This document shows, in pieces, positions 39,527 to 64,000 of a stretch of DNA of 64,000 bases. The number at the start of each line of letters is the position of its first letter. Position 1 is the first letter of the stretch. A program made the translations under genes and the position numbers. The notes under the pieces were generated by a model. The model made no database searches and was not told where the DNA came from. It was given only the letters and a program-made list of their open reading frames with translations. The DNA is taken from positions 1 through 64,000 of the IMG/VR virus record IMGVR_UViG_3300000301_000012; one strand, written 5' to 3'. Origin of the DNA: a virus.

Positions 39527-39590
39527 AACTTGTATTTTTAATAAAAAAGAAGTATAATAATTATATAAAGGGAAAGGAAGGTGATGCCAT

Positions 39591-44517: not shown

Positions 44518-45677
44518 TGGGTACTGTAGGTTTATATGATTGTGACTTATCTAATTTTGGATAGATTTTCTTCAATTTAGAGTTGATGAAAATAGCTTCC
44601 TATTTTAAGAATAGCAACTAGATTGTAACTATGTGTCCAAAGATATAGCCAGAATTATATTCTGATTTTTATTATCGAAAAGATTATGATACTGGAGTTT
44701 TTAATAAAAAGATTCTTCCTTATTTAAGTAATGAACATTTTCATTACGGTGGTTTAGCTTTCTCAAATAATAAATACATTCCATTACCAGAGGATATTGA
44801 AGGGTCTATTCCTGACCCTTCTATTTATTCTCGATTTTAGGAATCCTTTGAAAGAAGTTCTTTAGGAAAAATTGGATATAGAAGTTTTATGCGCGGGCCG
44901 CACTTAAGATTATCTACAGATGAAAAGACTATCTCAAATTATCCTTTTGATAAAGTATTATGGTCTACTAAAGGAGTAATAGTGTTTATCCACGATTATG
45001 ATATTGGTAAAATAGAGGATAGTTTGGATACAGTAAAATATTTATTACAATAGAAAAATAAAAATTTAATAAAAGGCGCGCTCGCGACAAAATTTCCCGT
45101 TGTTCTAAAAAAAGAATAGGATTTTATTGAATGGGAAAAAATAATTTGGTCGCCATTATCCGCGCCACTAACTTTTAAAGGATTAATGAATGATGAAGCT
45201 TTTTCGGAAGTAACTTTATTAACAAGATTAGGTCAACGAAAAATAGAGAATATAGATTATTATATAGATTATGGATGTTCCGATGAAGATGATTTTATAA
45301 TAAATCGCTTACCTAAAATTTTTAAATAGGTCACATTTTTACGAATGAATTAGGCAAGAATTTTTCTTAAATATGAGGATAATTTTTTTCAAGATGAAAG
45401 ATGTAGAAAATTAATTGGATTACTTAATGTATTTATAGAAGGAGAACGAACTTTAAATTATGAATAGCACCATGATTTTATAAATACGAATACCTTTGCA
45501 GGTTATTGTAAAAAATTATAGATAGTGCAAGGTAAACCAAAAGTCGTTCCTTTTCTAAGGGAAGATGCAAGAGAAGTATTTCAATTTATTCGAGAAAAAA
45601 ACTACGAACTTTTTAAAGATTTTTATGAATGTAGTACTGTTACTTTAAAAAATGGAGAGTTTAAAAATGACAAGTGA
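44517..45677 (+). CDS. hypothetical early-module protein (10 in-frame TAG)
   Basis: ATG overlaps the dnaE TAA. I walked all 386 codons. TAG lies at 44562, 44619, 44646, 44838, 45051, 45117, 45327, 45351, 45465 and 45519. No TAA or TGA occurs before 45675. Confidence 0.7.
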
Positions 45678-45858
45678 ACAAATTCATAATAAAATTGTAG
45701 AAAACAATAATGAAATAGAAAAAATTTTAACAGCAAATAGATTTACTTTAAATATTAAAATTTAGGAACTGTTAGAAGAAAACAAAAAACTTCAAAAAGA
45801 ATGCAATCATTTATTTGAAAATGGAGTATGTATTTATTGTTTTAAGGAGGCAGATTGA
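45667..45858 (+). CDS. small hypothetical protein (1 in-frame TAG)
   Basis: ATG at 45667, one TAG, and TGA at 45856 overlapping the next ATG. Confidence 0.45.
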
Positions 45859-46055
45859 TGTTTATAGTGTATTCAACAGGATGCCCACAATGTAAAGTTT
45901 TAATTTCCAAACTTAAAGAAAAAACGATTCCTTATGAAATAATTTCTGATATTGATGTAATGTTAGAGAAAGGTATTCAATCTGTTCCTGTTATTGAATA
46001 TGAAGGAAGACTTTATCCCTTTATGGAAGCATTAAAATTAATTAGGGAGTGGTAA
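45858..46055 (+). CDS. glutaredoxin/NrdH-like redoxin
   Basis: 65 aa. The translation has the CPQC active site in MFIVYSTGCPQCKVL. Confidence 0.75.
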   Translation: MFIVYSTGCPQCKVLISKLKEKTIPYEIISDIDVMLEKGIQSVPVIEYEGRLYPFMEALKLIREW

Positions 46056-46060
46056 TTTTA

Positions 46061-47974: not shown

Positions 47975-48176
47975 TATTGATATTACCTCTAAAAAACAAA
48001 TCAATAAAATGTTAAAGTCTTTAAAAGAAATTGGAGAAGATGAACCTATTTCTTTTGAATATGTTATGACAGCATTATTTCCTACTGTATTTTTTAATAT
48101 ACAAGAAAAAATGAAAGAACAATATACTAAAGGTTATATTCAAGGATTACAAGAAGGAGGTAATAATGAAAGTTAA
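47967..48176 (+). CDS. hypothetical protein
   Basis: 69-aa ORF that overlaps both neighbouring genes. Confidence 0.45.
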   Translation: MNNIDITSKKQINKMLKSLKEIGEDEPISFEYVMTALFPTVFFNIQEKMKEQYTKGYIQGLQEGGNNES

Positions 48177-48639
48177 AGGAATAGTTTTTGAGGATTTTTT
48201 AAACTATAAGAAGCCTTCTTTATTTATTATTTTCCCTTATTGTAATTTTAAATGTGATAAAGATTGCGGTTTAAAAGTATGTCAAAATAGTTCTTTGGCT
48301 AAAGAAAAAGAAATTGAATATAGTATTGATAAAATTGTTAATAACTATATTGAAAATGATATAACTAAAGCTATTGTATGTGGTGGGCTTGAGCCTATGG
48401 ATTCTTTCGATGATTTAAAAGAATTAGTGGGCGCGCTGCGTATAAAAACTAATGATGATATTGTAATTTATACTGGATACAGAGAAGAAGAAATAGAGGA
48501 TAAAGCAAATGATTTAAAACAATTTGCTAATATTATAATTAAGTTTGGAAGATATATTCCTAATGACAAAGAATATTATAATGATATTTTAGGAATTAAT
48601 CTTGCTAGTAGAAATCAATATGCAAAAAAAATCAGTTAA
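48166..48639 (+). CDS. nrdG: anaerobic RNR activating protein (radical SAM)
   Basis: The translation has a CNFKCDKDC (CxxxCxxC) cluster. The gene lies adjacent to nrdD. Confidence 0.8.
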   Translation: MKVKGIVFEDFLNYKKPSLFIIFPYCNFKCDKDCGLKVCQNSSLAKEKEIEYSIDKIVNNYIENDITKAIVCGGLEPMDSFDDLKELVGALRIKTNDDIVIYTGYREEEIEDKANDLKQFANIIIKFGRYIPNDKEYYNDILGINLASRNQYAKKIS

Positions 48640-48648
48640 GGTGATTGA

Positions 48649-48834
48649 ATGAAAATTCGTTCAAATCCAAATAAAGAACTTGTAAAAGAAATAAGAGAGA
48701 AACTAAAAGAAAACGATGGATACTGTCCTTGTAAAATAGTCAAGAATGAAGATACAAAGTGTATCTGCAAAGAATTTATTGAACAAGGATTAGGTCCATG
48801 TCATTGCGGTTTGTATATTAAAGAGGAAATTTGA
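48649..48834 (+). CDS. small Cys-rich protein, ferredoxin-thioredoxin-reductase catalytic-chain-like
   Basis: The translation has CPCK...CICKEF...GPCHCGLY, which follows the CPC...C.C...CHC pattern. Confidence 0.45.
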   Translation: MKIRSNPNKELVKEIREKLKENDGYCPCKIVKNEDTKCICKEFIEQGLGPCHCGLYIKEEI

Positions 48835-48851
48835 TTTCCTCTTTATTTTTT
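48822..48851 (+). terminator. rho-independent terminator
   Basis: Stem AGAGGAAAT/ATTTCCTCT is followed by TTATTTTTT. Confidence 0.65.
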
Positions 48852-48891
48852 AGTATAATATATATAGAAAATAGAGAGGAGAAATAAATTA

Positions 48892-49158
48892 ATGAAAAAC
48901 AATAATATTAAAAATTATACTAACAATAAAAATTATGAATATGGTTGTTTAATATTTTTAGTAGCATTAGTTGTACTTCTTTTATTTGGATTTATTTATA
49001 GCGCAATTATTATGTGGATTTGGAACGCAGTTATTGTTGTGCTCTTTGGTTTGCCTTTTATTTCTTACTGGCAAGCTTTTGGACTTTACATTTTATGTAA
49101 TATTTTATTTAAAAATACTACAAATGTAAGGAGTGAAGATTTTTATGATAAAAATTGA
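48892..49158 (+). CDS. small membrane protein
   Basis: 88 aa with two long hydrophobic segments. Confidence 0.55.
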   Translation: MKNNNIKNYTNNKNYEYGCLIFLVALVVLLLFGFIYSAIIMWIWNAVIVVLFGLPFISYWQAFGLYILCNILFKNTTNVRSEDFYDKN

Positions 49159-49840
49159 AAATTATGATGTTGTGGGCTGGGAACATGCAATTCGTGGGAT
49201 GCGGAATCCGATGAACTCTTGGGAGAAGAGTGATAGTTTTGAATTCCCTCCTGATGAAGATGGCGTACCAGATATTGGCCCAAATGATTATAAATTAATG
49301 AAAAGTCTTCGAGAAAGTGGGACTGACCATCGTAAGTTTATGAGAATGATTACGGTATATCTTGACATTGTTAGTCCTTTATATTTTCTCAAAGAGCTCG
49401 ATACATATAAAGTTGGAACTGTGGCAAACTCTTGCTCGACGATGCATAAAATTGCGGAGAAGGAATTTACTCTGGAGGATTTCTCACACGAGAAATTGAT
49501 GAGTGTCTACAATGATGATCCGTGTGACGCTCTATTTCTCGATGGGACAAATATCAGAGTTGATGGGGACGATTTGTTAGGGTTGACAATAAATGTTCTT
49601 AATTACTATCGAACACGCTACCTCAAAACCAAAGACAAGAAATACTGGTGGCAAATGATTCAACTCCTTCCTAGTTCCTACAATCAGAGACGGACGGTTA
49701 TGTTAAATTATGAAGTTTTAGCTAATATGTATAAATCTCGAAAAGACCACAAACTTGACGAATGGAGAGATTTTTGTAAGTGGATTAAAACTCTCCCTTA
49801 TAGTGAATTAATTACAGGAGAATATGATAATGGGTATTGA
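49133..49840 (+). CDS. ThyX-like protein (flavin-dependent thymidylate synthase fold, signature motif divergent)
   Basis: The translation RESGTDHRKFMRMITVYLDIVSPLYFLKELDTYKVGTVANSCSTMH aligns by eye with the ThyX core, but TYK...S.S replaces RHR..S....S.R. Confidence 0.45.
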   Translation: MKIFMIKIENYDVVGWEHAIRGMRNPMNSWEKSDSFEFPPDEDGVPDIGPNDYKLMKSLRESGTDHRKFMRMITVYLDIVSPLYFLKELDTYKVGTVANSCSTMHKIAEKEFTLEDFSHEKLMSVYNDDPCDALFLDGTNIRVDGDDLLGLTINVLNYYRTRYLKTKDKKYWWQMIQLLPSSYNQRRTVMLNYEVLANMYKSRKDHKLDEWRDFCKWIKTLPYSELITGEYDNGY

Positions 49841-50684
49841 TAATATTAAAAATATTAACGAAAATCAACAGAATGCTATTGATACATTTGCCCAAATTCT
49901 GGCGCTTCCCGATGAAGAATTTAAAACTTTCTCCCAGCTTTTTCTTGATACTCTTGAAAAAGAATTGACCGACCCCAAGAATATTTCTACTATACAAATT
50001 ATTTTTAAAAATTCTGGGATAGATGTTGAAAATTTTGTAGATAGCGCTGATGATTTATGTGAATCTCTTAAAGAAAAATATGGTAAAGATTTAGGAGAAG
50101 ATAGAATTGATTTCCTTGTAAAGATGGTTATTCTATTTAAAAACGCAGTTCGCGCGAATGGTAATCTTGGAAAGAAAATTGTAATGATTCAAGTAGAAAA
50201 ATGTTCGGAAGATACAAAAATTCCCACCTACGCGAGAGTTGGTGATGCTGGAATGGATATTTACTCTACAGAAGAAGTTACTTTGGCGCCAGGTGAGAAG
50301 AAATTAATTGGAACAGGTATTAAAGTTGCTATTCCTGAAGGATATGAAATTGAAGTAGTTCCTAAAAGTGGTATCGCATTAAGAACTGGTTTAAAAGTTT
50401 CTAATAGTCCTGGTACTATTGATAGTGGATATAGAGATGAAATTAAAGTAATTGTTGAAAACTCAGAGCCTTCAATTAAGGATATTGAATATACTTTTGA
50501 TGATAATAGAAATCCTGTAATTAAAAGCATCCTTCATGGAAAATCTTATACTATTGAAAAAGGTCAAAAAATTGCACAGATTATTCTAAAAGAAGTTCCT
50601 ATGATTAACTTCCAAGAAGTTAAAAATATTAGTGAAATTTCGGGCGACCGAGGTGGAGGCTTTGGCTCAACTGGGCTTAAGTAA
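49824..50684 (+). CDS. dut: dUTPase with N-terminal extension
   Basis: The translation has ARVGDAGMDIYS, GTIDSGYRDEI and C-terminal RGGGFGSTG motifs. Confidence 0.85.
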   Translation: MIMGIDNIKNINENQQNAIDTFAQILALPDEEFKTFSQLFLDTLEKELTDPKNISTIQIIFKNSGIDVENFVDSADDLCESLKEKYGKDLGEDRIDFLVKMVILFKNAVRANGNLGKKIVMIQVEKCSEDTKIPTYARVGDAGMDIYSTEEVTLAPGEKKLIGTGIKVAIPEGYEIEVVPKSGIALRTGLKVSNSPGTIDSGYRDEIKVIVENSEPSIKDIEYTFDDNRNPVIKSILHGKSYTIEKGQKIAQIILKEVPMINFQEVKNISEISGDRGGGFGSTGLK

Positions 50685-50686
50685 AA

Positions 50687-51421
50687 ATGTCTAAAATAAA
50701 AATAGAAGATATAAGAAAGGAACTTCAAGATGATGGATGGAAATTAATTTCTGATACTTATGAAAATTTAGATAGTGAAATGATTTTTTAGTGTCCAGAA
50801 GGACATACAGTATATAGCTCATGGAAAAAATTAAGAACAAAAAAAGAATGTCCTATTTGCAAAGCTAATAATTTTAAAGTCTTAGATTCAAAAGTAATCT
50901 CTAAATCAAAAGGAGTAAAGAGAGTTTTAGCTTTAGATTAGGCGACTCATATTACAGGCTGGGCTATTTTTGATAATCAGAAATTAATTAAATATGGAAA
51001 GTTTAGAACGGATTATTCTAAAGAAGAAGAACGTACCAATACAATAAAACATTGGTTAATTAATATGATTACTACTTGGAATCCTGATGAAGTAGGAATT
51101 GAAGATATACATTTTCAATAGAAAACCGCACAAGGCGCGCCAGTTGGCTTAATGACTTATAAAACTTTAGCTCATTTATAGGGAGTTATTATAGATACAT
51201 TATTTGAGATGAAACAATCTTTTACAATTTGTTCTCCATCTACTTGGCGCGAGCATTGTAAGGTTAAAGGTAAAACTAGCCCAGATAAAAAACGCTCAAT
51301 GCAATTAAAGGTTAAAGAATGGTTTGATATTAGTGTTACAAATGATGAGGCAGATGCAATAGGTATTGGGAAATATGTATCGGATAGCTTAAAAAAATGG
51401 GAAATAGTTAATTGGGAATAA
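50687..51421 (+). CDS. ruvC: RuvC-like Holliday junction resolvase with N-terminal zinc-ribbon extension (4 in-frame TAG)
   Basis: The translation has VLALD-TAG-ATHITGWAIF, GIEDIHFQ-TAG-K and NDEADAIGIG. Track ORF 51209-51421 is in the same frame as the ATG at 50687. Confidence 0.75.
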
Positions 51422-51425: not shown

Positions 51426-51460
51426 AAAAAGAGTGGATAGATATTCTATCCACTCTTTTA
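51426..51460. terminator. bidirectional terminator at the convergence of early and late modules
   Basis: Stem GAGTGGATAG/CTATCCACTC with a 5-nt loop, flanked by an A-run and a T-run. Confidence 0.7.
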
Positions 51461-51461: not shown

Positions 51462-51749
51462 TTACATTTTTTTCATTTTATTTTCTAAATCTTCGTACCA
51501 TTCTTCCAAACTATCTTTTAAAAATTCTCTTAAAGAATTATTTTCCATTGCTTTGTCAGCTTTGCTAATTTGTTCGAATAGCTGCATTGTCTATGGGAAA
51601 CTAACTGTTATTCTTTCTTTCGCCTAAGCAAATAAAAATTTAGAAACTTCAGGAGATGAATCTTGTAACTCTTTGGCCCAATCTAGCCACATACCAGCGT
51701 CTTTTAAATCATCCATCATTTTTTTATATAATGCTTTATATTTTAACAT
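51462..51749 (-). CDS. hypothetical protein (2 in-frame TAG)
   Basis: GGAGAA lies before the ATG at 51749 and the stop is TAA at 51464-51462. Not in the ORF track because of the TAG codons. Confidence 0.55.
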
Positions 51750-51762
51750 CTTATTTTCTCCA

Positions 51763-52179
51763 TTAACATAGTTTAGTTATAACAACATTAACATTAGAGA
51801 AAGTAGCTGGAACATCAGTATTAATTAAAGTTAAATTAACATTATTATCTATTGCACAACAAGAAGGTTTAACCTAAATTATAGTTGAAAAACTTAGGTT
51901 CTTAATATCGGTTAATGCGGTTGTAGATGCTGCTGTAGTAAGCGCACCAGGAACATTAACTCCATTTTGTTGCAGCTAAACAGTTATATTACCAACCGTA
52001 TCAGTTGCAGCGGCAATTCCATTAAAAGTAACAAAATAAAAACCTGGTTTATTTAGTGCAAAAGTAGCTGAGCCTGCGGCATGAGTAACAGTACATCCCG
52101 TCTATACGAAATTATTATTAAAAGTTAAAGCTTCATTTGTTAAAACTGCAAGACTAGTATTAGTATAACTATTTACCAT
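51763..52179 (-). CDS. hypothetical structural protein, BclA-C-terminal/C1q-like by eye (3 in-frame TAG)
   Basis: The frame was walked: TAG at 52102, 51976 and 51874, with TAA at 51765-51763. GGAGTGATGTAAA lies before the ATG. Confidence 0.55.
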
Positions 52180-52223
52180 TTTACATCACTCCTATGATAC
52201 GGATTTGTACTCTTTAAGAGTGA

Positions 52224-52901
52224 TTAGTTGCAGCAGCAACCATTATTATATCCATAGCCAGTATAAGCAGTAGTATAAGGGCTACAAGTAATGTAAGCAG
52301 GTTTTGCACATGGACGTAGTTCACTAATTAAAGTCTAAGTCTGAGCGTTGTTTTGAAGAGTTAATTGAGCAGATTGCAACTCAGTGCGTAAGTTCTCAAT
52401 CTTATCGTTAGTCATAAAGTCAATAATGCGTTGGAATCCTGCGTTCTAAGAATCGATAATATCTCTAGTATTCATATTGTTATTAGTAACAATATCACAA
52501 GTATTCTTAGCATTTTCATAACGAACTGCATCAATATTACGATTTGTTTCACAGCAACAGTTCTAAGTGGCAAAACGATTTTCAGCAATAGCGGAATTTA
52601 CTCCATTGAAACCTTGAAGAGCAGTTGTGTTTAAATCATAGAATCCACTACAAAGACCATTTTGAACACCCTGAATCTGCCTTTCAATGTTGTTCATTGT
52701 AAATCCATCGTACATTTCTGCTCTAGTAAGGGCACCATTCGCGCCAACTCCACCAAAGCCGCCGAAGCCGCCACCGAAAGCATTAAAAGCCCACATCCAT
52801 ACTAAATATACGAATGGATTATCCCACATTCCATCATTATAGCAATTTCTATTGTTATTTGTCAAAGCCAATACATCGGCTGCTGATAGGCCATTATCCA
52901 T
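52224..52901 (-). CDS. Gly/Cys-rich hypothetical protein (3 in-frame TAG)
   Basis: The track ORF 52563-52901 extends through TAG at 52563, 52446 and 52335 to TAA at 52226-52224 (checked). Confidence 0.65.
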
Positions 52902-52934
52902 TTTACAGGCCTCCTATTTTATTTATTTCTTCGT

Positions 52935-53216
52935 TTAAAACGAAGATTGTTTCAATTGTTCAATAAAGTTTAATCCCGATTGAATATCGTTCTCTGACAT
53001 ACCCTATTGTCGCGCTCTCTAAACCAATTGAGATAATATATTATCATCTATATTTGGTAAATACTAACGAAACTAATTCTAATTAATAGGCATATTCCCA
53101 CTTGGCATCATATTATTCATCATTTGCGCCATTGGATTTCTAGGCATAATACCCATTCCAGGGCCACCTTGGCTCATCATGTTCATCATCATCGAAAAAG
53201 GATTAGATGAGTTCAT
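52935..53216 (-). CDS. Met/Asn-rich hypothetical protein (5 in-frame TAG)
   Basis: ATG at 53216 and TAA at 52937-52935. The translation begins MNSSNPFSMMMNMMSQGGPG. The length is a multiple of 3. Confidence 0.5.
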
Positions 53217-53631
53217 TTATTTTTCCTCCACTATTACTCTTTTTCAATTCACTAATTTCATTCTCAAGATTATTTATTTTTTCTCTTTGTTTTTGAAATT
53301 CTGTAACTAATGCATTAAGGACATCTTGCTAATTACTCGAAGTTGAATTGGAATTTATATTTTGATTTGAATTTGAGTTATTATCATATGGAGTAATTTT
53401 ATATGCCATAAACATAGGATTTCCATTTTGCATTGATTTTAAATATAGAAGTCCTTCTGACAGACATAATGCTACTGATAATCCACCGCTCATAGGTACA
53501 TTTGCTACTTCTAAAGAGTTATTGATAGTGTAAACATTACCTTGTGGCTGAGGAAATAACTATTGTGGTTGATACTGTCCCATTGACTATGCCTATTGAT
53601 TATATGGAAATTGGTAGCTATTATTTGTCAC
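53203..53631 (-). CDS. Gln-rich hypothetical protein with C-terminal coiled coil (4 in-frame TAG)
   Basis: AAGGAGGTG lies 8 nt before the GTG at 53631. Three TAG codons fall inside the run YNQ-TAG-A-TAG-SMGQYQPQ-TAG-LFPQPQ. Confidence 0.55.
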
Positions 53632-53706
53632 TACTTTTCCACCTCCTTTTCGCTCCTATTAATAAGTAAACTATGAGAAATACTATTTTAATAATTTGGT
53701 GTAAAT

Positions 53707-54639
53707 TTATACATTAGTCTATCCTGAGATATAAAAATTTATATATCCTATAACTGAGTTTGCGGTAGATGGCCTAATTAAATACAAAGAAGGAGCATAA
53801 TCTATTCTGTAAGATGCTGTAGGATTTAACCATATCAATGCAGACTAATTGTTAGTTGAATAAAAACTTGCCTAAATATTCGGATATGTATTTCTTTGAA
53901 AAGAATAGGGGTAGCGATATTCTCTTTGACCAATGGGGGAATCAGAACGATACCAATTTTCCCCTAGTGTATAAGATACAGAAGTAGAAACATAAATAGA
54001 GGCCCATAATTCCATAAAACCATCAGACCATATGCGATAGGTCCATACTCCTGAGGTTCCTTCAATTGTTATATAACGATTTATCATATTTAATTTATCA
54101 TAAAGAAATGTAGTCATTAGTCCATCCTAAGAACTAGATACAGTCGGAATAGTATACCAAGTTCCCTAATTAGATGAATCTCTTCTTAGGTACTATCCAC
54201 TAGAACCTAAATTTGTAGGAGAATCCATTTTTTTATTTAAAGTATTATATAATTCAGTAGTCATTAGTCCATTCTAAGAACTAGATACAGTTGGAATAGT
54301 AACCCATGTTCCCTAATTATTTCCTGCTCTTTGCAGATACTATCCACTAGAACCTAAATTTGTAGGAGAATCCATTTTTTCATCTATAGATTCTTTTATT
54401 AAAGTTATTTCACTTTCTAAATTTTCTATATCAATTATTTTATGAGTATGTTCTTCTGGAGGAAAAGTTTCTGGTTTATTCTAAATATTTTCCCAAGAAG
54501 TATCATTTAACGAAACGATTTCTCCATTAATTTTAGTATATAATTTATTAGTAGTTTTATCTATGCCAGGTTCTAATTCTTCTAAATCATTAGATGTTGG
54601 TATTGTTTCTCCACTCTTTAAAATTATTTTATTAGCCAT
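53707..54639 (-). CDS. tail fibre tip-like protein, twin of 17052-17984 (10 in-frame TAG)
   Basis: The frame was walked codon by codon. TAG lies at 54481, 54340, 54313, 54274, 54193, 54166, 54127, 53872, 53845 and 53719, with TAA at 53709-53707. It has an internal duplicated MDSPTNLGSSG-TAG-YL segment. It is exactly 933 nt, the same length as 17052-17984. Confidence 0.8.
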
Positions 54640-55033
54640 CAGAAACCTCCAAAAATTTTAGAAGAGTTTCTAAATCTCCAAATTTTAAATTAACTTCATT
54701 CAATTTTTCAAAATCTTTGTTTTTAATTTTAATTTTTTCTATTTCAACTTCTGTATTATTTAATTCCATAATTGCTTTTTGACATTCTTCAATTTTATCT
54801 TTTATAATAATAAAACTACTCTAATCATTTGACATTTTTATTGTACCATCTTCATTTTTTTCACAATAAAGATTTAAAATTTTATTAAATTCTTCTTGCC
54901 AAAAATTATAATTAGTTTTATTTTTTTCATTTAATAAAGTTAAAGAATAGGCTAATTGAATAGGTATTACCTTTTCCTTTAAATTATTATATACTTCCTA
55001 AAAAACTAAACAATCCTATAAATTAATTTTCAT
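54632..55033 (-). CDS. hypothetical protein (3 in-frame TAG)
   Basis: GGAGGA lies before the ATG at 55033. TAG at 55016, 54998 and 54821; TAA at 54634-54632 (checked). Confidence 0.6.
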
Positions 55034-55096: not shown

Positions 55097-58000
55097 TTAC
55101 CAATTGCCGCCAGAAATTATCGCACCATCAATAGTTCTGTTTTTTAAGTCTATTAAAATAGTTTGATTGTTATTTGTATCATAACCAATTAATGTTCCAT
55201 TTTTAACATTAATAACTATATTCATTGCTTCTCCGGCTTCATTAGTTCCAATAAATTTTATTTTATCTCTCATACCAAAATCAGAAACAATAAAAATTTC
55301 ATCTTCATCTTTACTAAAATTATTGGTATTTATACCTACATGATTTGCTCTATGAGATACGGTAGGCGCGTCAGCATAATAAGTATAAATTGATGAATAA
55401 GTAATATTTACACTTAATCCATTAAAATCTTCTAATTCATTAGTTCCTAACCCAGTAGACATAATTAAAACTAATCTTGAATAAAGTTTTTTATTTAGAA
55501 AATTTTCATTTAAAACATCTGTTGCAATTGTAATAGGCTATCCATTATTAGAACCAATAGATTCAAAGTCTGTATTGCTATCGTAATCTATAGAAGTTAT
55601 TCCATAGTTATTACTGGAAGTATTATTAAAATTACCATCTAAACAATACTCTAAAGAGATTCTAGCTTTTTTATTATAACTTTCACCATTTAAAGAAATT
55701 GTTCTTTCAAAATTAGGATACTAAGAATAAGTATAAATCTAACTATTTACAAAGCGCGAGCCGCCTAAATCTGAAATAATGTAAGTAAATTTTAATTTAT
55801 TATCAGTATTGTCTACTTTAGCATCAAAATCAATAGTAGCATTTTGAATACGACAGCCAATTAAATAAGTTTCTGAATATTTATATTCAGATAAATTTCC
55901 CTTACTATCTACCGCCGCAATTGCAAAAATTAAAAATTTGTTCATTGTATAAGAATTAACTGGATATAACATATTAACTTCATTATTATCAATATCTAAT
56001 TCTTCCAGGGAATAAGTTTTTAACATTTCAAAATTTCCAGTAGAATAATTAGCATCAAAAGCTATTGCAGGTTTTGTATCTAATCTTTTTACAAATAATC
56101 TATATCCAATTATATCTTCATTATAATCAGTTGCTTTATTAAATTTTAGAAAAACAGATTCTCCTGGATTAAACATTCTTTCATTGGCAATATTAAAATC
56201 TCCAGAAGTTGTTGTACTTACCATCTTTATTTTATTTGTTGTAGTCTAAGCATTATATTCTATACCTAAACTTATATATTCTCCAGTTACAAATTTAGGA
56301 GACTCAATAAATTTAATCTAAGTATTTTGACTACTGTTTATTGTAGATGTCATTCCAGAATTATCTCTAGCATAAATTCTATATCTAACATTTATAAAAT
56401 TCTAATTCCAAATAGTATCTTCTGGATTATCTTTTAAGGAATTATTTTTAAGCAAGGTATTTATATTATTAGCTTCTACTGTAAAAAATACTGTATCTCC
56501 TTCAGTTGAAGTAGGGTCTACATTAGTTAAAATTGGAATTGTTAATCCTTTTTGTTCTATATAAGCATCAATAGTATAAGTGATAGGATTATCACTAATT
56601 GCACGAACAGAAGAAAATACTAAATTTTGGGTATTAGTATAAGGACGAACAGTAACCATATTATCTTCTTCTGGACCTGTAACACTGAAAACTTCTGTAC
56701 TTAATTCAGGACCATATCCTCTATACAAAATATATTGACTATTAGTTGCGATTGTATCGCTAAATCGTCCTGCCGTATCTGTAACTCTAACGCCAAAACG
56801 ATAATACTGCCCTGGCGTAAAATTAGCCGTTACAGTCTAAGTATTAATTCCACCAGAAGTATTATTTCCATTAATCCCTGATAAAATTGTACTACCCCAT
56901 GAACTTCCATTTGAACTAGCCTAATAAATTACTTGAGTAGAAGTAATATTTGCATTACCACTTTGTATAACTGGATTGGTCCAAGTAATTTTTATACTAT
57001 TTGAAAAATATCCAGGAGCTAATCCTGACTCTGCTGCTTCAACAGAAGAAATTGTAGGAGCAGAGGGTTTGCTTGGAACTTGATATACCTCACTAGTATA
57101 TGTCCAATCAGAATTTCCGTAGTCATTGGTTAAATATGCTCGTGCTTTAATATAATTTCCAGCATAAGTATTACTGAAATTAGATGGAACTTCAATAGCA
57201 ACATATCCAGGAGAAACTTGTGGAACTGTAACTCGTCCAACTGTATAGGAATTTCCTCTATTGTTTAATATTGTAGAATAATTACTACTAAAAGTTAATT
57301 GTACATATGCACTTGTGGGATAATATTCTCCATTATTACTTCCGCTATTTAAATCTACAGTTACTAAATTTGGAATAATTAAAGAAGCATTTGTATTTCC
57401 CTAAATACCATCGACCTAAAGGCCAGTTAATTCTACCTCTGAAGGAGCATACGGAGGATAGGAATTTACAGTTATATATTTACTAACTGTACTACTATAA
57501 GCATAATAACCATTTTTATAATTATAGCAACGAAAAGTATAGTTTCCACTAGATTCTGGTTCATCAGTAACTGTAAAACTGGTTGTAGTATGCCAAGAGC
57601 TACTATCAGGTGTCTAATATTGCAAATAATCTGCGTTATAACCTATTGTAAAAGTAACAGACTAACCTTTAGTAATCTATTCTCTATTTACGCTAACAGA
57701 AGGCCTGCTAGGAGTAGTAGGTCTATTAGAATTTATTTTAAAATAAAAAGCTCTACTCAAATCAGAATGATACTAGGAAACATTAGCTCCACTTGAAACA
57801 GATGAACTTACCTATAACTAAGCTCTAACTGCTAAGTACTATCCTTCATGCCCAGACTCTAATGTTTTTGTAACTTCCGGCCAAGCCTAACCAAGTTTAC
57901 TATCCCAATTTCCCGTGGGAGTACTAGGAGTAGAAGAAGAAGATGAATTAACATACTTTAAAAAGAATTGATAACCAGATACTTCCAAATTCTATCCAGG

Positions 58001-58645
58001 AGAACTTCCACTACAAGAAATAGTAACTGTATCTCCATCATAAACTGTAGAAGGAGATATTTCTATATTAGTAGGAGCTTTACTTTTTGTATAAATGGGA
58101 GTGGGGTCTGATTGCTTTGGTAAAGTTAATGTTACATTACCATTACTATCAACATTAACCCCACTGTGACTAGTTAATCCATGTGAGTCATGAAAATAAG
58201 TACTCGCATAAGGAAGAGTCATATAAGTTAAAAAACTAGATATCTTATGAGAAGTAGGAGGGGGATTACAAAATCCTGCTAAAATTGATATAGTTTTACT
58301 AGAAGTTGATGTATAAGTAAAACTATGTGTAACAGCTGGAAAATTAACCCATCCATTACCAATCTCATAAGGTCCATTTCCCCCATCTTCTCCAGAAGTA
58401 TTCTTATTATGAACCTATTTTTTAATACCATTTATTGTAATATAATCGCTTCCATATGGATTATCTCCTTTTCCATACCAAGTAGGTCCATAATTATCAT
58501 AACGTCTTACAGACATTGTTGTAGTAAAAGTCGCAGTAGTAGTAGTACCACTTGTGCTAAGCGAATATGAGCCTGCAATTTTAAAGCCCATATTTGCCGT
58601 AGCGTCATTATCTCTATACCAAACTTCAACTGAATAATTAGGCAT
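55097..58645 (-). CDS. large structural / host-recognition protein, 1182 codons (20 in-frame TAG)
   Basis: AAAGGAGTG lies before the ATG at 58645. Five track ORFs share this frame. I walked every gap: 20 TAG and no TAA or TGA until TAA at 55099-55097. Confidence 0.85.
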
Positions 58646-58658
58646 TTAATCACTCCTT

Positions 58659-61600
58659 TTACTCCTAAACATATAAATCGTATCCAATTAATTGACCATT
58701 ATCATTTCGAATAGCTCGATATTCAATTATATCTTGTAATAATAAATTTTCATTAAAATAAACATTAGTATTAAATCTTGACTAATTACGATTAAAAGTA
58801 ACTGTTGTAATATCAGTCGCAGTTGAATCAATAATATTAATACCATTATTATAATTTAAATACATCTAATAATCTAGTCCAGAAATAGTAGAAGGTAAAC
58901 CATTATTAGTAAAACCTATTCTATTTGGCTAAATAACAAGAAGATTACTAATATCTTCCGTCTAATTATAAATTAATGCTATTGGCATTATAACTGTAGA
59001 ATCATTTCTAACTGTAAAATTTGAACCTACATATAAATTTGAATTTAAAGTTAACCCCTAATCGGTTAAACTCATTCTCTAAATGCCATTATTAGTAAAA
59101 TTAATACCATAAGCAACATCTTGAATATTTAGCGCAGCATTTGTGTAATCTCCATTACTATCTTTAGCATATCCTGTTATTGTTGCTGTTTTTATTTCAG
59201 CCGCGGTTATAGTTGCATCAGTAATAATTGTACCCTAGAAATAACCGCTACCAGCGTAAAGATTTCCATAAGTATCAACTCTAAAACGAGCATTTTCAAT
59301 ATCTTCTACTGAATCACTATCTGCACCAGCCCATAATAGAATATTTCCTCGTCTATCAGCAGGAAAATTAGAATTTTTTTCCATAGCTTCTGATTCAGTG
59401 TTTATACCAGAAGAATAATTTATTCCATTCGCTATCATAGAACCCTTTAAAAGAACATTATCAGCATATAATCCATATTTGCCAGATAAACTACCGTATG
59501 TTTCTGGAATATTAGGAATCTAACCTAAAATAACTCTAGGAATAATATTTACATTTCCTTCTAAATCATAAGTTGAGGCTGATTCAATTTGAAGTTCAAA
59601 AAGAGATAAGGCATTTCCAGTAACTAAATTAGAATTTTTAGAGCTATTAATTCCAATTCCAATATCTCCTGTTTTACCAAAATCTACAAAAGGTAATCCT
59701 ATAAAATTATAATTTGTTAAATTAGAACTATTTAATAGTTCAATTTCCGCACCATCTTCTCCATTTAGCTCTCCAGTTGTATCATCAATTTCAAAAATAC
59801 CTTCAGCGAAAGCTATTTCAAACATACTTTCTGTTAAAGCATTTCCATATCCAATTTTACAGTAGTCCCCTGTTGAAAAGCCATTTCGATTTTCAATAGT
59901 AATAAAAACATTTCCATTTTCTTCTTTTCTAACAGTTTTAATTATTGAACTAGGGCGAACTATTAAAATACCACCTACAGCCTAAATATTAGAATATTCT
60001 AATACAGAAGATTTAATAGAACCTCTAGCTATAATATTATTAAAAATAGCTGAATCAGAATTTATATTCCATCCTGAATTAGTATTATAATTTGCAGATT
60101 GAATAGATTCTGCTACTCCATTTAAAATAATTCCCGTTGTTTCACTACCTAATCTTAATATTCCATCAGATGTAACTACAAAACTATTTATTAGTTCATT
60201 TAAAGAATTAATCTAATTTATTAATAAGAAAGCATTAGATGGAATTTTATTAGTTTCTTTTAATTCAGAATCTAAACTATTTACACTACTTGGATTAAAA
60301 ATCCAAGTATTATTTCCTAATCTTATATAATTTTTAATAGTTGCATAATCTCCTAAAGTAATAGTATTAGCAACTATTTCACCAGAGCTAGAAATAAAGA
60401 AACCTGAATTACTATCTGAGGTATAATTATTTATATAAATACCCTAATACTAATTTTGAATTTCTATAGTAGGATTTTCATACCAATTTGAAGTTGAAGG
60501 ATTTACTAAATTATTAAGATTTACACTTATATATTCTTCTTCCTACAAAATATAATAATTTTTATTTATATTTAATGTTGTATCCTAAGATAAAGTATAA
60601 TCTTCACCATTAAATTCATAGTAATTACTTAAAGATGGATTAATTAAAGTAGAAAAATCTACTTGAATATATTCTTCTTCAAATAAAGTATAGTATTTTT
60701 TTTCAAAATCAATTGAAGTATCTTTAGAAAGAATATAATTTGAAGTATCAATTTGTTCAATAATGTCTCTACCATCTATAATAATATTACCTACCAATAA
60801 CTAGCCATCAATATTTAAATTTCCTAAAGTTCCATTAACAGCATTTACTGTACCATTAAAAGTACCATCAGTAGCATTTACTGTACCATTGAAGGTACCA
60901 TTATTAGCATAAATAGTCCCTTCTATAATTAAATCTCCATTATCATCAGCATATAAAACTCTTTCTTCATTATTATTTAAGATAGATAATCCACCATTCT
61001 AAATTGTAAGTCCATCAATATTAAATTCTAATTTAGTATTTTGAATTGCTGCATTTATACCTGCCGCGTTTAATTCAAAAATTGCCATATCCTCTGTAGA
61101 ACCAAATCTAATTTCAATAGGAGAAACTACTAAAATTTGCTCAGTATTAGGCTAAAACGCTTTAAATCTAATTACAGTTTCCTATGTTCTAATAATATCT
61201 CTAATTTTTTGCCATTTCTTGTCTTCAATTTCACTTGTCGCAGAACAATAATCCTATATATTAAAAATATATCTATTCTCATTTTCAATAGTATCTTGAA
61301 CTATATAATACCCTATATAATCATTCATACTCAACCATTCATTTTCATTATTGTCATAAACTTCAAAAATGGCATCATACTAATTAAAACCCATATTTAA
61401 ACTATTATTATCATAGTATAAACTAAGTGATATTATTAACTAAGAAGGAGAAAATATTGTATTTATCTCCTAGGTTTCAGAATTAATTTCCTTAAATTTT
61501 AATATTCTTTCTTGATTAAAATTTACGATGTATCTTCTTTGAGAAATCGCAGAACCATCCTCGCCCTTAACTTTATTCCAAGTATAAGCAGATTTATCAG

Positions 61601-64000
61601 TCGGCGCAGTCTCAGAGGGACCAGTATAAATTCCCATATAAATATTAGGAGTATCACTAAAATCAGTACCATCAGGATAAGCAGAATATTTAATATGAAC
61701 ATAAGTCTATTCTCCAGATTCTCCTGGCTTACCTTGCGCGCCGTCTGCAACAGTGTTAATAGTTAAGTAAGAAGTATAATTTTCTCCATCTGTTCCACTT
61801 ACAACTAAGCGAATAAAATATGTTCCGTTAGTATTAAATTTATCTTTATGAGCTTCATAATTAAATATATACTAACTTCCAGATCCAGATAAGATTTCCC
61901 ACTAATCAAAATCATTACTACCAGACCAAGTATAAGCAGTATCTCCTGCTACTTGAACATTACTTAAACGAGCAGTTAAAGTCAAAGACTCTGGACTTGC
62001 CACTCCATCTTTAAGTTTAAAAAATTCTCCTTCTAGCGATTGAATTGTAACATTCTTTCCAATCTACCCAATATTATTAATATCTTCGATTGTCATATTA
62101 CCAATTTTACCGCCAGTAGCATAGATAGTACCAGTTAATTCTACTCTATCAGCTTTTAATAAACCATTATCATATATAGCAACAGTTTCAATATTTTCCT
62201 GGTCTTTTACAGAGAAAATTTTAGAATAATCTTTTAAGCTATCATCAGTTGTAATTTCTCCATCTTCAGTATAGCTTTCAATTACACCAATCTAAGCTCT
62301 ATAACGATAAGTGTCTGATATATCTGGACCAATAAATAATTTCTACTTTAAGAATAATTGACCATCATCATCAGTAACCATTACTGGCGCGCCGTCACTA
62401 TCTGAAAATCTTATACCAAATAAATCTTGACCTAATCGACCAATCTTTATTCTTTCAGTTCCTTGTCCATCAATAACCTAAATATCATTTTCAGAATCAA
62501 TAGTTATATATCCCTATTCATCTGGCGCAACATTTCCATAATTACTCTTCAAGAAGAAGCCATCCCAAGTAAAGCCAAAATCAGCATTATTTCTAATTTC
62601 TTCTTCGCTTTCTGGAGTAAAATCCTAATTTCCTCGCATACCATAGATACCATACTGGTCAAAACGAACAAATTCTCCAAAATTAAAAAATTCTGCTTCT
62701 CCTTGGTCATTTCTCGTAAATCTATAGGCATTGATACCTCTTTCATCCCATCTAAAGGCACTAAAAGAACCACTTAAAATATGAATTCGAGAAGCATCAA
62801 TTTGTCCAGAAGTTATATGATTAGCATTTATACCATTACCAGTAATACCAGCATTCCAAGTATCTCCACCATTTGTGCTTAAAAAGATACCACCACTAAC
62901 CAATCTAACAATTTCATTTGGTTTAGATAAACTAGTAATAATCATACCATTATCGTTCCAAACAACACTTTGGTCCTTAGCATTACTAATGATTAAAGAG
63001 TTATTTGCAAAGCTATTCTAAAGAGTTTGAACTTTTATTTCTCCATTTGTATTTATAATATCGGATACCTTTCCATACTCACCACTTTTATACTCAATAG
63101 ATTGAGTAGTTGCAGTAATACGTTGAAATAAATCTTCAAACTGAGTTTTATAATTCTAAACAGTAATTTTATTTGATTCTGGAGAATCAAGACTATAGCT
63201 AATCTCAGAAATAACGATTTCTTCTTTATATGGAGTTTTCATACCATTTTTAACTACCCAGCCAAAAAATTCAGTATCTTCCATATAAGTAATATCGCCT
63301 AAGGCAAAATGATAATTTTCAAAACCAGGCATTTCACTTATTTCTAAAACATTTATTGTATAACTTATCTAAGGCGAGGCAGAAGTATATAACAAAGCTT
63401 CAGCATCAAGATAATATAAATTATCATCAATATAATCTTCGGAAATCCAAGAACCTTCCTAAATAAAACGAGAATATTTTTTATAAAATATTTTATTTAA
63501 TTCATTTTTCTATTCTGCAATACTATCAAGATAATTTTCAATATTTTCTAATTTTCCTTGATATTCTTGTAAATTAGCTTCAGCCTAAGACCATAAAGCA
63601 TTAAATCTATCAGTCTATCCAGATAAAGTTTTTATAGCAGTTATATATTCTCTAACCTTATCATTTACTAACCATTTTGCAGCTTCTGAATTATTATTAG
63701 TAAAATCTTCATAAGCAAAACCAGTATAAGCCTTTAGCTCATTTTTATTAGTAGTTAAACTTGCTTCGGCTTCTTGTGCTGCTACTTCATAAGTTTGTAC
63801 TTGAGCTTCAAGATTTGTAATGGTATTTTCAATTTCAGACTATTGTTCAATATAAGAATCTCTATCTTTATTTAGATTTCTTAATTTAACATAATATCCT
63901 AAATATCCACCAGCATCTAGGTATAAATCATTACTGACCTAAGTGTAATCTAGTAAGCCCTGTTGAATATAATGTTTAAAATTATATAGGAAATTTTCTT
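58659..64000 (-). CDS. giant tail-associated host-specificity protein (Tal/PblB-like), at least 1780 codons, start beyond window (41 in-frame TAG)
   Basis: The frame ending at TAA 58661-58659 has no TAA or TGA up to the window edge (every codon outside the track ORFs walked). The segment GGIFLSTNGGDTWNAGITGNGINANHITSGQIDASRI is typical of siphovirus tail-tip/antireceptor proteins. Confidence 0.8.

What the first reader, a model, noticed from the sequence alone, without database searches (positions are those of the whole stretch)
55097..64000. TAG is read as a sense codon: giant late ORFs are open only if amber is translated
On the minus strand, the frame that ends at TAA 58661-58659 runs at least 1780 codons to the window edge. 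It has 41 TAG and not one TAA or TGA. The adjacent 1182-codon ORF (55097-58645) has 20 TAG and no TAA or TGA. I walked these frames codon by codon. In DNA this AT-rich, thousands of codons free of TAA and TGA cannot occur by chance. About 30 other genes in the window also need TAG read-through, and every gene end I checked is TAA or TGA. This matches the stop-codon recoding described for some gut phages (genetic code 15). Standard-code gene callers will shatter this genome, as the supplied ORF track shows.
Basis: seen in the sequence. Interest (0 to 1): 0.8.

Follow-up and report, generated by a model that had tools for sequence, protein, structure and literature searches.

The report
Phage reads amber stop as glutamine

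Summary
The minus-strand frame ending at TAA 58661-58659 runs 1780 codons to the window edge, with 41 TAG and no other TAA/TGA. ORF 55097-58645 has 20 TAG and none. By base composition, chance is about 1e-56.

- A standard-code relative carries both genes as single uninterrupted ORFs aligned end to end.
- dN/dS against a sister strain is 0.14-0.19 over the full frames.
- TAG sites align best with Gln.
- Among strains 96-98% identical, 34 of 42 changes at TAG sites are to or from CAA/CAG.
- A CTA-anticodon tRNA with a tRNA-Gln-like acceptor stem sits at 7907-7982.
- No ORF needs TAG as its stop.

TAG supplies half of the Gln-type codons in the tail block. It is absent from the replication enzymes.

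The two ORFs are the tail-tip protein (Tal, 2473 aa in full) and a downstream tail protein of an SPbeta-like siphovirus.

This matches code-15 recoding as described by Borges et al. and others, so it is a new member of a known kind. Public gene calls for this phage already read through TAG. The early-to-late code switch is inferred, not shown.

The parts
58659..63998 (-). C-terminal 1779 codons of the tail-tip protein (Tal-like; 2473 aa in sister strains). It has 41 in-frame TAG and ends in TAA. The N-terminus lies beyond the window edge.
   Evidence: aa 178-422 about 29% identical to Bacillus phage 'tail endopeptidase'; 43% identity over the full length to a code-11 ORF in L063. P0001, 2473 aa, 91% identity; relatives carry PF06605; the gene follows TMP and Dit; dN/dS 0.14.
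55097..58645 (-). 1182-aa tail/baseplate-associated protein just downstream of Tal, with 20 in-frame TAG, ATG start and TAA stop. Function beyond 'tail module' is unknown.
   Evidence: no Pfam or PHROG hit; 33% identity over 1210 columns to a 1159-codon code-11 ORF in L063; called as a 1182-aa product in public assemblies; dN/dS 0.19.
51462..55033 (-). Seven further genes of the same minus-strand late block (g63-g69), with 28 in-frame TAG in total. They include a BclA_C-like protein (51763-52179) and a fibre-like protein (53707-54639, 10 TAG).
   Evidence: 13 of the 15 TAG sites in g63-g67 are Gln in the standard-code relative L001.
7907..7982 (-). tRNA with anticodon CTA, an amber suppressor (ARAGORN labels it 'Pyl' by default). 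It has a U1·U72 mismatch, G73 and an encoded CCA.
   Evidence: Rfam tRNA, 54.6 bits; cloverleaf; 12 of 15 acceptor and discriminator positions match the phage tRNA-Gln(TTG), against at most 7 of 15 for any other tRNA; a CTA tRNA is present at this locus in all 8 sister strains.
3794..3867 (-). The phage's own tRNA-Gln(TTG). Its acceptor stem and discriminator nearly match those of the suppressor.
3335..8491 (-). Array of 14 tRNA genes, including the suppressor, interspersed with homing-endonuclease-type ORFs.
16120..23298 (-). Second minus-strand block of tail-fibre-like genes that share an N-terminal fibre motif (g25-g31). It holds 13 in-frame TAG, and two of its genes have none.
24343..50684 (+). 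Replication and nucleotide-metabolism module: helicase, topoisomerase II, Sak4, DnaB, primase, RecJ, YorL-type DNA polymerase, NrdD/NrdG and dUTPase. These enzymes have no in-frame TAG. The TAGs inside this span all lie in g41, g50, g52 and g53.
40933..41863 (+). A 931-bp insertion that splits the DNA polymerase gene. It is a group I intron carrying a GIY-YIG homing endonuclease (ORF 41192-41869) with 5 in-frame TAG.
   Evidence: PHROG homing endonuclease, E = 1e-29; the insertion is absent from six sister strains; the polymerase is a single ORF in L001; two collinear partial Intron_gpI hits at 41027-41117 and 41765-41854.
44517..45677 (+). 386-aa gene of unknown function right after the polymerase. 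It has 10 in-frame TAG, the densest recoding outside the tail block.
   Evidence: no family hit; full-length TAG-free homologues in 37 relatives.
50687..51421 (+). RuvC-like Holliday junction resolvase with 4 in-frame TAG. Two of these sit at columns that are Gln in all 18 relatives.
13378..14397 (+). GT2-type glycosyltransferase with 7 in-frame TAG.
   Evidence: called as a 338-aa Glycos_transf_2 product in sister strains.
51427..51459 (.). Bidirectional terminator-like hairpin of 15 pairs. It lies between the converging plus-strand replication block and the minus-strand tail block.

Best explanation
The window is roughly half of a ~120-125 kb SPbeta-like siphovirus genome in which TAG is a glutamine codon (translation table 15), not a stop.

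SHOWN
- The two giant ORFs are real single genes, Tal and the next tail protein. They are under purifying selection along their whole length, and a standard-code relative carries them without interruption.
- TAG behaves as a Gln codon in alignments and in strain-level polymorphism.
- TAG is never needed as a terminator. TAA and TGA end every ORF.
- The phage carries its own CTA-anticodon tRNA with a tRNA-Gln-type acceptor stem.
- TAG is concentrated in tail and fibre genes, an intron homing endonuclease, a resolvase and a few unknowns. It is absent from the replication enzymes.

INFERRED (following Borges et al.)
- A host enzyme then charges the accumulating suppressor tRNA with Gln. The enzyme would be GlnRS or the GluRS/GatCAB route.
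- The charged suppressor out-competes RF1 at UAG, so TAG-containing late proteins can only be made from then on.
- Proteins with 41-110 TAG codons need about 98-99% or better decoding per site. Reassignment late in infection must therefore be nearly complete. Some further means of silencing RF1 may exist, but none was seen in this window.
For: Counts and chance.

Coding coverage: 65% under code 11 against 91% with TAG as sense in the window. In the tail module of a sister strain the figures are 37% and 99%.

End-to-end homologues open under code 11.

Purifying selection across the frames: dN/dS 0.19 and 0.14.

Gln identity:
- With TAG masked as X, Gln is the commonest partner at 39 TAG sites across 62 related loci. 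Its log-likelihood exceeds the next residue by 194 over all cells, or 30 when normalised per site.
- Columns g41:45, g62:85 and g62:165 are Gln in every relative aligned there (15, 18 and 18).
- Against the standard-code sister, 29 of 81 aligned TAG sites are Gln (36%). Ordinary CAA/CAG sites are conserved at 49%, and the Gln background is 3.6%.
- Among six strains 96-98% identical, 235 of 243 window TAGs are kept, and 34 of 42 changes involving TAG are to or from CAA/CAG.
- The base following TAG is distributed like that following CAA/CAG (p = 0.34).

Suppressor tRNA. A CTA tRNA is present in all 8 strains and in another recoded relative, L087.

Early/late bias: TAG against CAA+CAG is 89:89 in the tail block and 25:254 in the replication block (Fisher p = 8e-23).

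Not an assembly artefact: the same TAGs recur in independent assemblies from several samples.

Literature describing the same pattern: Borges et al., bioRxiv 10.1101/2021.08.26.457843; Peters et al., PMC9523058 (proteomic proof of TAG = Gln in crAss-like phages; abstract); Babkin et al., PMC10607447.
Against: - There is no protein-level evidence for this phage.
- In the very divergent g70 pair (33% identity), none of the 16 aligned TAG sites is Gln in the relative; they are T, N and S. The Gln call therefore rests on g71 and the better-conserved genes.
- Outside the acceptor stem, the suppressor is no closer to tRNA-Gln than to other tRNAs.
- One sister strain (L077) carries a CTA tRNA with a different acceptor stem and A73, so its charging identity is open.
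- No RF2, glutaminyl-tRNA synthetase or anti-RF1 function was found in the window or in the ~30 kb of flanks seen in sister strains. How RF1 is beaten at 41-110 sites per protein is unexplained.
- The early/late split is not clean. g33, g41, g52 and g53 lie in or next to the replication block and carry TAG, while two fibre-like genes (18132-19874 and 22343-22906) have none.
- The host and its genetic code are unknown. The only bacterial hit was a distant one in an uncultured Bacilli MAG.
Confidence: 0.93

Rival explanations
1. TAG is an ordinary stop here. On this view the long frames are decayed pseudogenes or strings of short separate genes.
For: A standard gene caller would report only short ORFs, with a median of about 30 codons between TAGs.
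Against: - 1779 and 1182 codons free of TAA/TGA have a chance probability of about 1e-56.
- The frames align end to end with single code-11 ORFs in a relative.
- dN/dS is 0.14-0.19 across the whole frames.
- TAGs are conserved in independent assemblies.
- No ORF in the window needs TAG as its terminator.
Confidence: 0.01
2. TAG is sense but encodes something other than glutamine, for example pyrrolysine (ARAGORN's label), Glu, Lys or Trp.
For: - ARAGORN names the CTA tRNA 'Pyl'.
- Glu is the second commonest partner of TAG sites.
- At g52:35 relatives have Glu in 34 of 37 cases.
- Strain L077 has a CTA tRNA with a different acceptor stem.
Against: - Log-likelihood favours Gln over Lys and Glu by about 190 units and by 55 against the sister genome.
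- Strain-level changes are TAG<->CAA/CAG in 34 of 42 cases.
- The tRNA has an ordinary cloverleaf with a GG-containing D-loop, not the tRNA-Pyl shape.
- Its acceptor stem matches the phage tRNA-Gln.
- No pyl genes turned up among the proteins scanned.
Confidence: 0.03
3. TAG is a leaky stop. On this view low-level read-through makes a little full-length protein and truncated products predominate, so this is attenuation rather than reassignment.
For: Host RF1 is presumably present, and no RF1 antagonist or RF2 gene was seen in the window.
Against: At 90% read-through per site, full-length yield would be 1.3% for the 41 TAGs in the window part of Tal. It would be effectively zero for the 110-TAG tape measure of a sister strain, yet these are stoichiometric virion parts. 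The sequence context of TAG matches that of ordinary Gln codons.
Confidence: 0.03
4. TAG = Gln is correct, but the enrichment in late genes is not a timing device. It would reflect only where TAG<->CAG drift is tolerated once a suppressor exists, with highly expressed or early-needed genes purged of TAG.
For: - The partition is imperfect: some replication-block genes have TAG and some fibre genes have none.
- TAG and CAA/CAG interconvert freely between strains.
- The standard-code sister uses no TAG stops at all, which fits codon loss followed by neutral capture.
Against: The bias is very strong (odds ratio 10, p = 8e-23). It recurs in unrelated recoded phage clades, including in intron homing endonucleases (Borges et al.).
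Confidence: 0.3

Closest known systems
TAG-recoded (code 15) gut phages of Firmicutes-type hosts described by Borges et al. 2021/2022 (clades such as Agate and Sapphire, ~127-154 kb)
   Same: - Low GC content and in-frame TAG read as Gln.
- A phage-encoded CTA suppressor tRNA.
- Structural genes recoded while replication genes stay in standard code.
- Recoded modules scattered in several blocks.
- A recoded group I intron homing endonuclease inside an early gene.
- Very close standard-code relatives that already avoid the recoded stop codon.
   Different: Clade membership could not be tested because the terminase used for their tree is outside the window. No RF2 gene was seen here, whereas they report RF2 in two TAG-recoded Agate phages.
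crAss-like phages (Crassvirales) using code 15, with metaproteomic proof (Yutin et al. PMC7886860; Peters et al. PMC9523058)
   Same: The same reassignment (TAG to Gln), suppressor tRNAs, and late genes recoded.
   Different: This is an unrelated phage lineage. The window encodes an SPbeta YorL-type DNA polymerase (41% identity) and a siphovirus tube-TMP-Dit-Tal tail module. crAss-like phages are podovirus-like and infect Bacteroidota. No proteomic evidence exists for this phage.
phAss-1 / proposed 'Phassvirus' group (Babkin et al. 2023, PMC10607447)
   Same: A siphovirus-type gut phage of about 135 kb with a large tRNA set, CTA suppressor tRNAs, TAG = Gln in about 28% of ORFs including giant tail genes, no dedicated aminoacyl-tRNA synthetase, and non-recoded relatives.
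   Different: It is not a close relative. No GenBank phage record matched the window by megablast. The best tblastn hits of the polymerase and Tal were Bacillus phages, not phAss-1.
Bacillus phage SPbeta and relatives (standard code)
   Same: YorL-type polymerase at 41% identity over 98% of its length, a YomU-type tail tube in a sister strain, a genome size class of about 120-135 kb, and many homing endonucleases and introns.
   Different: SPbeta uses the standard code. The window phage is only distantly related, and its host is unknown.
E. coli supE (glnV) amber suppressor tRNA
   Same: A tRNA-Gln-type body with a CUA anticodon that a host enzyme charges with Gln (own knowledge; Borges et al. 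make the same argument).
   Different: supE gives partial suppression in a cell that still uses UAG stops. Here UAG is never a stop, and decoding must be nearly complete.

Membership tests
Stop-codon-recoded phage, genetic code 15 (TAG to Gln) | Conserved genes are interrupted by in-frame TAG only, never by TAA or TGA. | tested here: met
   142 in-frame TAG in 25 of 67 ORFs, with no internal TAA/TGA.
Stop-codon-recoded phage, genetic code 15 (TAG to Gln) | Coding density rises markedly when genes are called with TAG as sense, and not with TGA as sense. | tested here: met
   65% (code 11), 91% (TAG sense), 69% (TGA sense); 37% against 99% in the tail module of a sister strain.
Stop-codon-recoded phage, genetic code 15 (TAG to Gln) | TAG positions align with glutamine in homologues from standard-code genomes. 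| tested here: met
   Gln is the best-fitting residue by a wide margin, and there are invariant-Gln columns. In the most divergent gene (g70) no aligned site is Gln.
Stop-codon-recoded phage, genetic code 15 (TAG to Gln) | TAG is not used as a terminator. | tested here: met
   stops are TAA 49 and TGA 21. TAG positions are uniform along the genes.
Stop-codon-recoded phage, genetic code 15 (TAG to Gln) | A phage-encoded suppressor tRNA with anticodon CTA (common in this kind of phage, though not universal). | tested here: met
Stop-codon-recoded phage, genetic code 15 (TAG to Gln) | Recoded codons are concentrated in structural, lysis and other late genes, while early genes are compatible with the standard code. 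| tested here: met
   (p = 8e-23). Lysis genes were not identified in the window.
Stop-codon-recoded phage, genetic code 15 (TAG to Gln) | Peptides show Gln inserted at UAG. | not testable with these tools
   No proteomic data are available. This has been done for crAss-like phages only (PMC9523058).
Agate (or another named) clade of Borges et al. | Placement within the clade on the large-terminase tree with at least 95% bootstrap support. | not testable with these tools
Pyrrolysine decoding of UAG | A tRNA-Pyl architecture (short D-loop without GG, 6-bp anticodon stem, 3-nt variable loop) together with pylS/pylBCD genes. | tested here: not met
   the tRNA has an ordinary cloverleaf with a GG D-loop. 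No Pyl genes were found among the scanned proteins. Alignments favour Gln.
Crassvirales (crAss-like phages) | crAss-type gene complement and podovirus-like tail. | tested here: not met
   SPbeta YorL-type polymerase, YomU tube, a 2864-aa tape measure, Dit and Tal, which together make a siphovirus module.

The most novel reading that the evidence does not exclude
Decoding of 41-110 UAG codons per protein needs near-total reassignment. This phage may therefore carry an as yet unrecognised way of neutralising host RF1 or boosting suppression.

Two candidates seen here are unexplained:
- A conserved tRNA-like RNA with a UUA 'anticodon' but a purine at position 33, placed just upstream of a DUF2828/DUF7788 protein (12177-12251 and 10655-12130).
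- Turnover of three different CTA-tRNA alleles at one locus among strains that are 96-98% identical. This leaves open that the amino acid inserted at UAG differs between strains.
Probability: 0.08. Interest if true: 0.65.

Novelty: new member of a known kind. Interest (0 to 1): 0.25.

Why it matters
In practical terms, any standard-code annotation of this genome is wrong. Tal, the next tail protein and about 23 further genes would be shattered, so table 15 or a code-aware caller must be used. Public gene calls for sister strains already do this.

In biological terms, it adds an SPbeta-like lineage to the list of amber-recoded phages. It also comes with a useful comparison set:
- A standard-code sister genome with 80% polymerase identity that has no in-frame TAG and no TAG stops in the ~32 kb examined.
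- Many near-identical recoded strains.

That set makes the order of events in a code change directly traceable: loss of TAG stops, gain of a suppressor, then spread of TAG into late genes. It does not change what is known about the phenomenon.

Tried and rejected
- Pfam and PHROG scans of the two giant proteins found nothing. A PDB sequence search of the Tal fragment also found nothing.
- Megablast of 55097-64000 and of 24000-48000 against GenBank phages gave no match.
- An IMG/VR pattern search with the 1182-aa protein found no relative. The relative was reached instead by walking from the polymerase.
- An exact-match search for the suppressor tRNA in IMG/VR gave no hit.
- Exact-product look-ups failed for the polymerase fragment, g19 and g14.
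- The genome-contig scan with the polymerase gave only a distant hit (41%) in an uncultured Bacilli MAG, so there is no host call.
- I tested the idea that the TTA-anticodon tRNA is an ochre suppressor and consider it unlikely. It has G or A instead of U at position 33, and TAA terminates 49 of the 70 complete ORFs.
- I tested the idea that it is a Y-RNA-like partner of a Ro-like protein without result. There was no PDB sequence hit for g19. The AlphaFold single-sequence model was unusable (pLDDT 39.7), so no fold search was run. The minimum-free-energy fold was only weakly better than shuffles (z = -1.8). The one distant homologue locus, L065, has no tRNA-like gene. The literature search for DUF2828 was uninformative.
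- I looked for a +4 context bias at TAG as a sign of selection for suppression and found none.
- No Rfam intron hit explains the split topoisomerase gene.

Full report
OBSERVATION

On the minus strand, the frame that terminates with TAA at 58661-58659 is open for 1780 codons up to the window edge. It contains 41 TAG and no other TAA or TGA. The adjacent ORF 55097-58645 begins with ATG and ends with TAA, with 20 TAG and no internal TAA/TGA. The window is 31.7% G+C.

With the local base composition, a codon is TAA or TGA with probability 0.07, so 1779 such codons in a row have a probability of about 1e-56. The two other frames of the same stretch hold 96 and 241 TAA+TGA. The longest TAA/TGA-free run in 200 shuffles of the window was 209 codons. 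Read with code 11, the two ORFs fall into 42 and 21 pieces with a median of about 30 codons.

Across the window, stop-to-stop ORFs of at least 100 aa cover 65% under code 11, 91% if TAG is sense and 69% if TGA is sense. I called 71 ORFs with TAA/TGA as the only stops, and four of them merely overlap tRNA genes. Of the remaining 67, 25 carry in-frame TAG (142 in all). Every complete ORF ends in TAA (49) or TGA (21). TAGs are spread evenly along the genes rather than piling up near 3' ends.

ARE THE LONG FRAMES REAL GENES?

The DNA polymerase in the window (39973-40953 plus 41866-44517) is of the Bacillus phage SPbeta YorL type, with 41% identity over 98% of its length. It led to 62 related IMG/VR loci. 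The closest is contig 3300045988_143646 (112.9 kb), with a polymerase 80% identical. Walking along that contig (locus L063) gave the counterparts of both giant ORFs.

The first is an ORF of at least 1651 codons that aligns to all 1779 residues of the window frame at 43% identity (E = 0). The second is a 1159-codon ORF that aligns to the 1182-aa protein at 33% identity (E = 1e-174). Both are open under the standard code, with no TAG at all. Over 6367 aligned residues, this relative has no in-frame TAG where the window has 31.

The same phage species, 96-98% identical in nucleotides, occurs in many independent ENA and Logan assemblies. Against one of them (L072), dN/dS over the whole frames is 0.19 and 0.14. 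The sequence downstream of every TAG is therefore under protein-level selection. Assembly error and pseudogenes are excluded.

WHAT DOES TAG ENCODE?

I masked TAG as X in both query and subject and aligned the window proteins to code-15 ORFs of the 62 loci. Thirty-nine TAG sites had partners. Gln was the commonest partner (127 of 559 cells). I took each amino acid's substitution spectrum from the same alignments. On that basis Gln fits best by 194 log-likelihood units over Lys and Glu, or by 30 when each site counts once. Three sites are Gln in every relative aligned there: g41:45 (15 relatives), g62:85 (18) and g62:165 (18).

Against the standard-code sister alone, 29 of 81 aligned TAG sites are Gln (36%). 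Ordinary CAA/CAG codons are conserved as Gln at 49%, and the Gln background is 3.6%. There is one caveat. In the very divergent 1182-aa protein, none of the 16 aligned TAG sites is Gln in the relative.

The cleanest evidence comes from six near-identical strains. There, 235 of 243 window TAGs are retained, and 34 of the 42 codon changes that involve TAG are to or from CAA or CAG. The nucleotide following TAG is distributed like that following CAA/CAG.

THE DECODING APPARATUS

All 15 tRNA-like genes lie on the minus strand between 3335 and 12251. The one at 7907-7982 has anticodon CTA. ARAGORN prints 'Pyl' for any CTA anticodon, but this tRNA has an ordinary cloverleaf with a GG D-loop and scores 54.6 bits on the Rfam tRNA model.

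Its acceptor stem has a U1·U72 mismatch, then G2-C71, and the discriminator is G73. This matches the phage's own tRNA-Gln(TTG) at 12 of 15 positions and no other tRNA at more than 7. A weak 1-72 pair with G73 is the classical tRNA-Gln signature (own knowledge). Outside the acceptor stem the two tRNAs are not especially alike.

A CTA tRNA sits directly after tRNA-Met in all eight sister strains examined, and it comes in three different alleles. Another recoded relative, L087, also carries a CTA tRNA with an unpaired U1 and G73. I saw no release factor, glutaminyl-tRNA synthetase or similar gene in the window or in the roughly 30 kb of flanks seen in sister strains.

WHICH GENES ARE RECODED?

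In a sister strain the gene order is YomU-type tube, a 2864-aa tape measure, Dit (Sipho_tail), a 2473-aa protein, then the 1182-aa protein. The window's truncated giant ORF is therefore the C-terminal 1779 residues of the tail-tip protein (Tal). Its closest full-length relative is P0001 at 91% identity. Many family members carry the prophage tail endopeptidase domain PF06605, and residues 178-422 resemble Bacillus phage 'tail endopeptidases'. In that strain the tape measure has 110 TAG and Tal has 53, with no TAA/TGA.

In the window, TAG supplies 50% of Gln-type codons in the tail block 51462-64000. In the plus-strand replication block it supplies 9% (Fisher p = 8e-23), and all 25 of those TAGs lie in six genes. 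The helicase, topoisomerase II, Sak4, DnaB, primase, RecJ, polymerase, NrdD/G and dUTPase have none.

The recoded genes outside the tail blocks are:
- a GIY-YIG homing endonuclease inside a group I intron in the polymerase gene (5 TAG);
- an unknown 386-aa protein (10 TAG);
- a RuvC resolvase (4 TAG);
- a glycosyltransferase (7 TAG);
- an HNH endonuclease (3 TAG);
- a few small or membrane proteins.

HOW IT MOST LIKELY WORKS

Shown: TAG is a Gln sense codon and never a stop. The phage supplies a matching tRNA. The codon is concentrated in late-type genes.

Inferred, following the model of Borges et al.: TAG-free genes and the tRNA array are expressed under the host's standard code. A host enzyme charges the suppressor with Gln. 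Only then can TAG-bearing proteins be completed.

A simple yield calculation shows that this cannot be ordinary leaky suppression. At 90% read-through per site, the window part of Tal would be finished 1.3% of the time and a 110-TAG tape measure essentially never. At 99% the yields are 66% and 33%. How RF1 is out-competed to that degree is not explained by anything I found.

COMPARISON WITH WHAT IS KNOWN

This is the phenomenon first noted in metagenomes and crAss-like phages. Borges et al. surveyed it systematically and describe the same features:
- TAG to Gln, with suppressor tRNAs in about 40% of such genomes;
- recoded structural and lysis genes with standard-code replication genes;
- recoded modules scattered in large Firmicutes-type phages;
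- a recoded group I intron endonuclease within an early gene;
- very close standard-code relatives that avoid the stop codon concerned.

All of these are seen here. The last one shows in the sister genome, which in the ~32 kb examined uses TAA 31 times, TGA 7 times and TAG never as a stop. Within the wider clade, recoding is patchy. L002, L059, L040, L044, L045, L054, L055, L058, L086, L087 and L094 are recoded, and most others are not.

Peters et al. proved TAG = Gln by metaproteomics in crAss-like phages (PMC9523058). Babkin et al. described a comparable ~135-kb siphovirus group (PMC10607447). The window phage is none of these. No GenBank phage matches it by megablast, and its nearest characterised relatives are SPbeta-like. 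Whether it belongs to a named Borges clade such as Agate could not be tested, because the terminase is outside the window.

The public protein collection already holds the 1182-aa and 2473-aa products, which means they were called with TAG read through.

VERDICT

This is a new member of a known kind, an amber-to-glutamine recoded SPbeta-like phage. Its value is practical (correct annotation) and comparative (a ready-made pair of standard-code and recoded sister genomes plus many strains). Interest is low to moderate.

Noticed in passing
window 12177-12251 (-), with 10655-12130 (-): ARAGORN calls a 'tRNA-Stop' with anticodon TTA (Rfam tRNA, 54 bits). Position 33 is G in the window and G or A in seven sister strains, never the universal U. 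No CCA is encoded. The sequence is bracketed by complementary AGACGC/GCGTCT and lies about 45 nt upstream of a 491-aa DUF2828+DUF7788 protein (PHROG 850, 'RNA-binding protein'). It is conserved in 7 of 7 strains. It is probably not an ochre suppressor, since TAA ends 49 ORFs. It may be a tRNA-like or Y-RNA-like partner of the neighbouring protein, but that idea is untested.
   Followed up: partly
L073-L080, locus corresponding to window 7907-7982: Strains of the same phage species carry three different CTA-anticodon tRNAs at the same position after tRNA-Met. Type A is the window's allele. Type B (L074, L078) has the same acceptor stem but different D, anticodon and T arms. Type C (L077) has a different acceptor stem and A73. 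The suppressor function is kept while the gene is replaced. The tRNA array as a whole varies between strains, with 15-18 tRNAs and differing homing endonucleases.
   Followed up: partly
window 40933-41863 (+): The DNA polymerase gene is split by a 931-bp insertion that six sister strains and the sister genome L001 lack. Two collinear partial Rfam Intron_gpI hits (41027-41117 at 32.5 bits; 41765-41854 at 21.6 bits) flank a GIY-YIG homing endonuclease ORF with 5 TAG. This is a group I intron with a recoded endonuclease. Another strain (L067) has an intein-type insertion in the same polymerase (1604-aa product).
   Followed up: yes
window 25563-28432 (+): The topoisomerase II large subunit is split into 25563-26972 and 28079-28432 by a second GIY-YIG homing endonuclease (27226-27927, no TAG). 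No group I intron signal was found there with Rfam.
   Followed up: partly
L001 + L063 (IMG/VR 3300045988_143646, contig 46588-78901): The closest relative (polymerase 80% identical, tail genes 33-78%) uses the standard code. In the ~32 kb seen, it also has no gene that stops at TAG (TAA 31, TGA 7). TAG therefore looks unassigned there, which fits the 'stop-codon loss before capture' route.
   Followed up: partly
window 1-2000: The first 2 kb are 47% G+C against 31.7% for the window. The genes there (436-1224 DUF6273-like, 1261-1957) are present in only some sister strains (L075, L076). This is a variable accessory region, possibly acquired recently.
   Followed up: no
window 2022-2840 (-), 10655-12130 (-), 14973-16079 (+): Genes that look like RNA or nucleic-acid repair functions surround the tRNA array. 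They are an RlaP-like nucleotidyltransferase (PF10127), the DUF2828/DUF7788 protein and an ATP-dependent ligase. Sister strains add a PNK-like 6PF2K/AAA_33 gene beyond the window start. This may be a tRNA-repair set countering host anticodon nucleases.
   Followed up: no
window 16120-22906 (-): This is an array of five or more paralogous fibre-like genes that share one N-terminal motif (PHROG 19976/6049) with different C-termini. They carry unequal TAG loads of 0-5.
   Followed up: no
window 3995-4055 (-) and 8346-8414 (-): Two extra weak Rfam tRNA hits (40.9 and 29.6 bits) that ARAGORN did not call. They may be degenerate or truncated tRNA genes in the array.
   Followed up: no
window 44517-45677 (+): A 386-aa protein of unknown function directly after the polymerase has 10 TAG, the highest density outside the tail block. 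It has TAG-free homologues in 37 related loci and no Pfam or PHROG match. It is a candidate for a product whose early expression is harmful.
   Followed up: partly
window 55065-55094 (-) and 52836-52865 (-): Two perfect sigma-70 consensus matches with the extended TG (TTGACA-18-TATAAT). The first sits in the short gap between the 1182-aa gene and the next tail gene, and the second inside the late block. The total number of promoter-like sites does not exceed that in shuffles.
   Followed up: no
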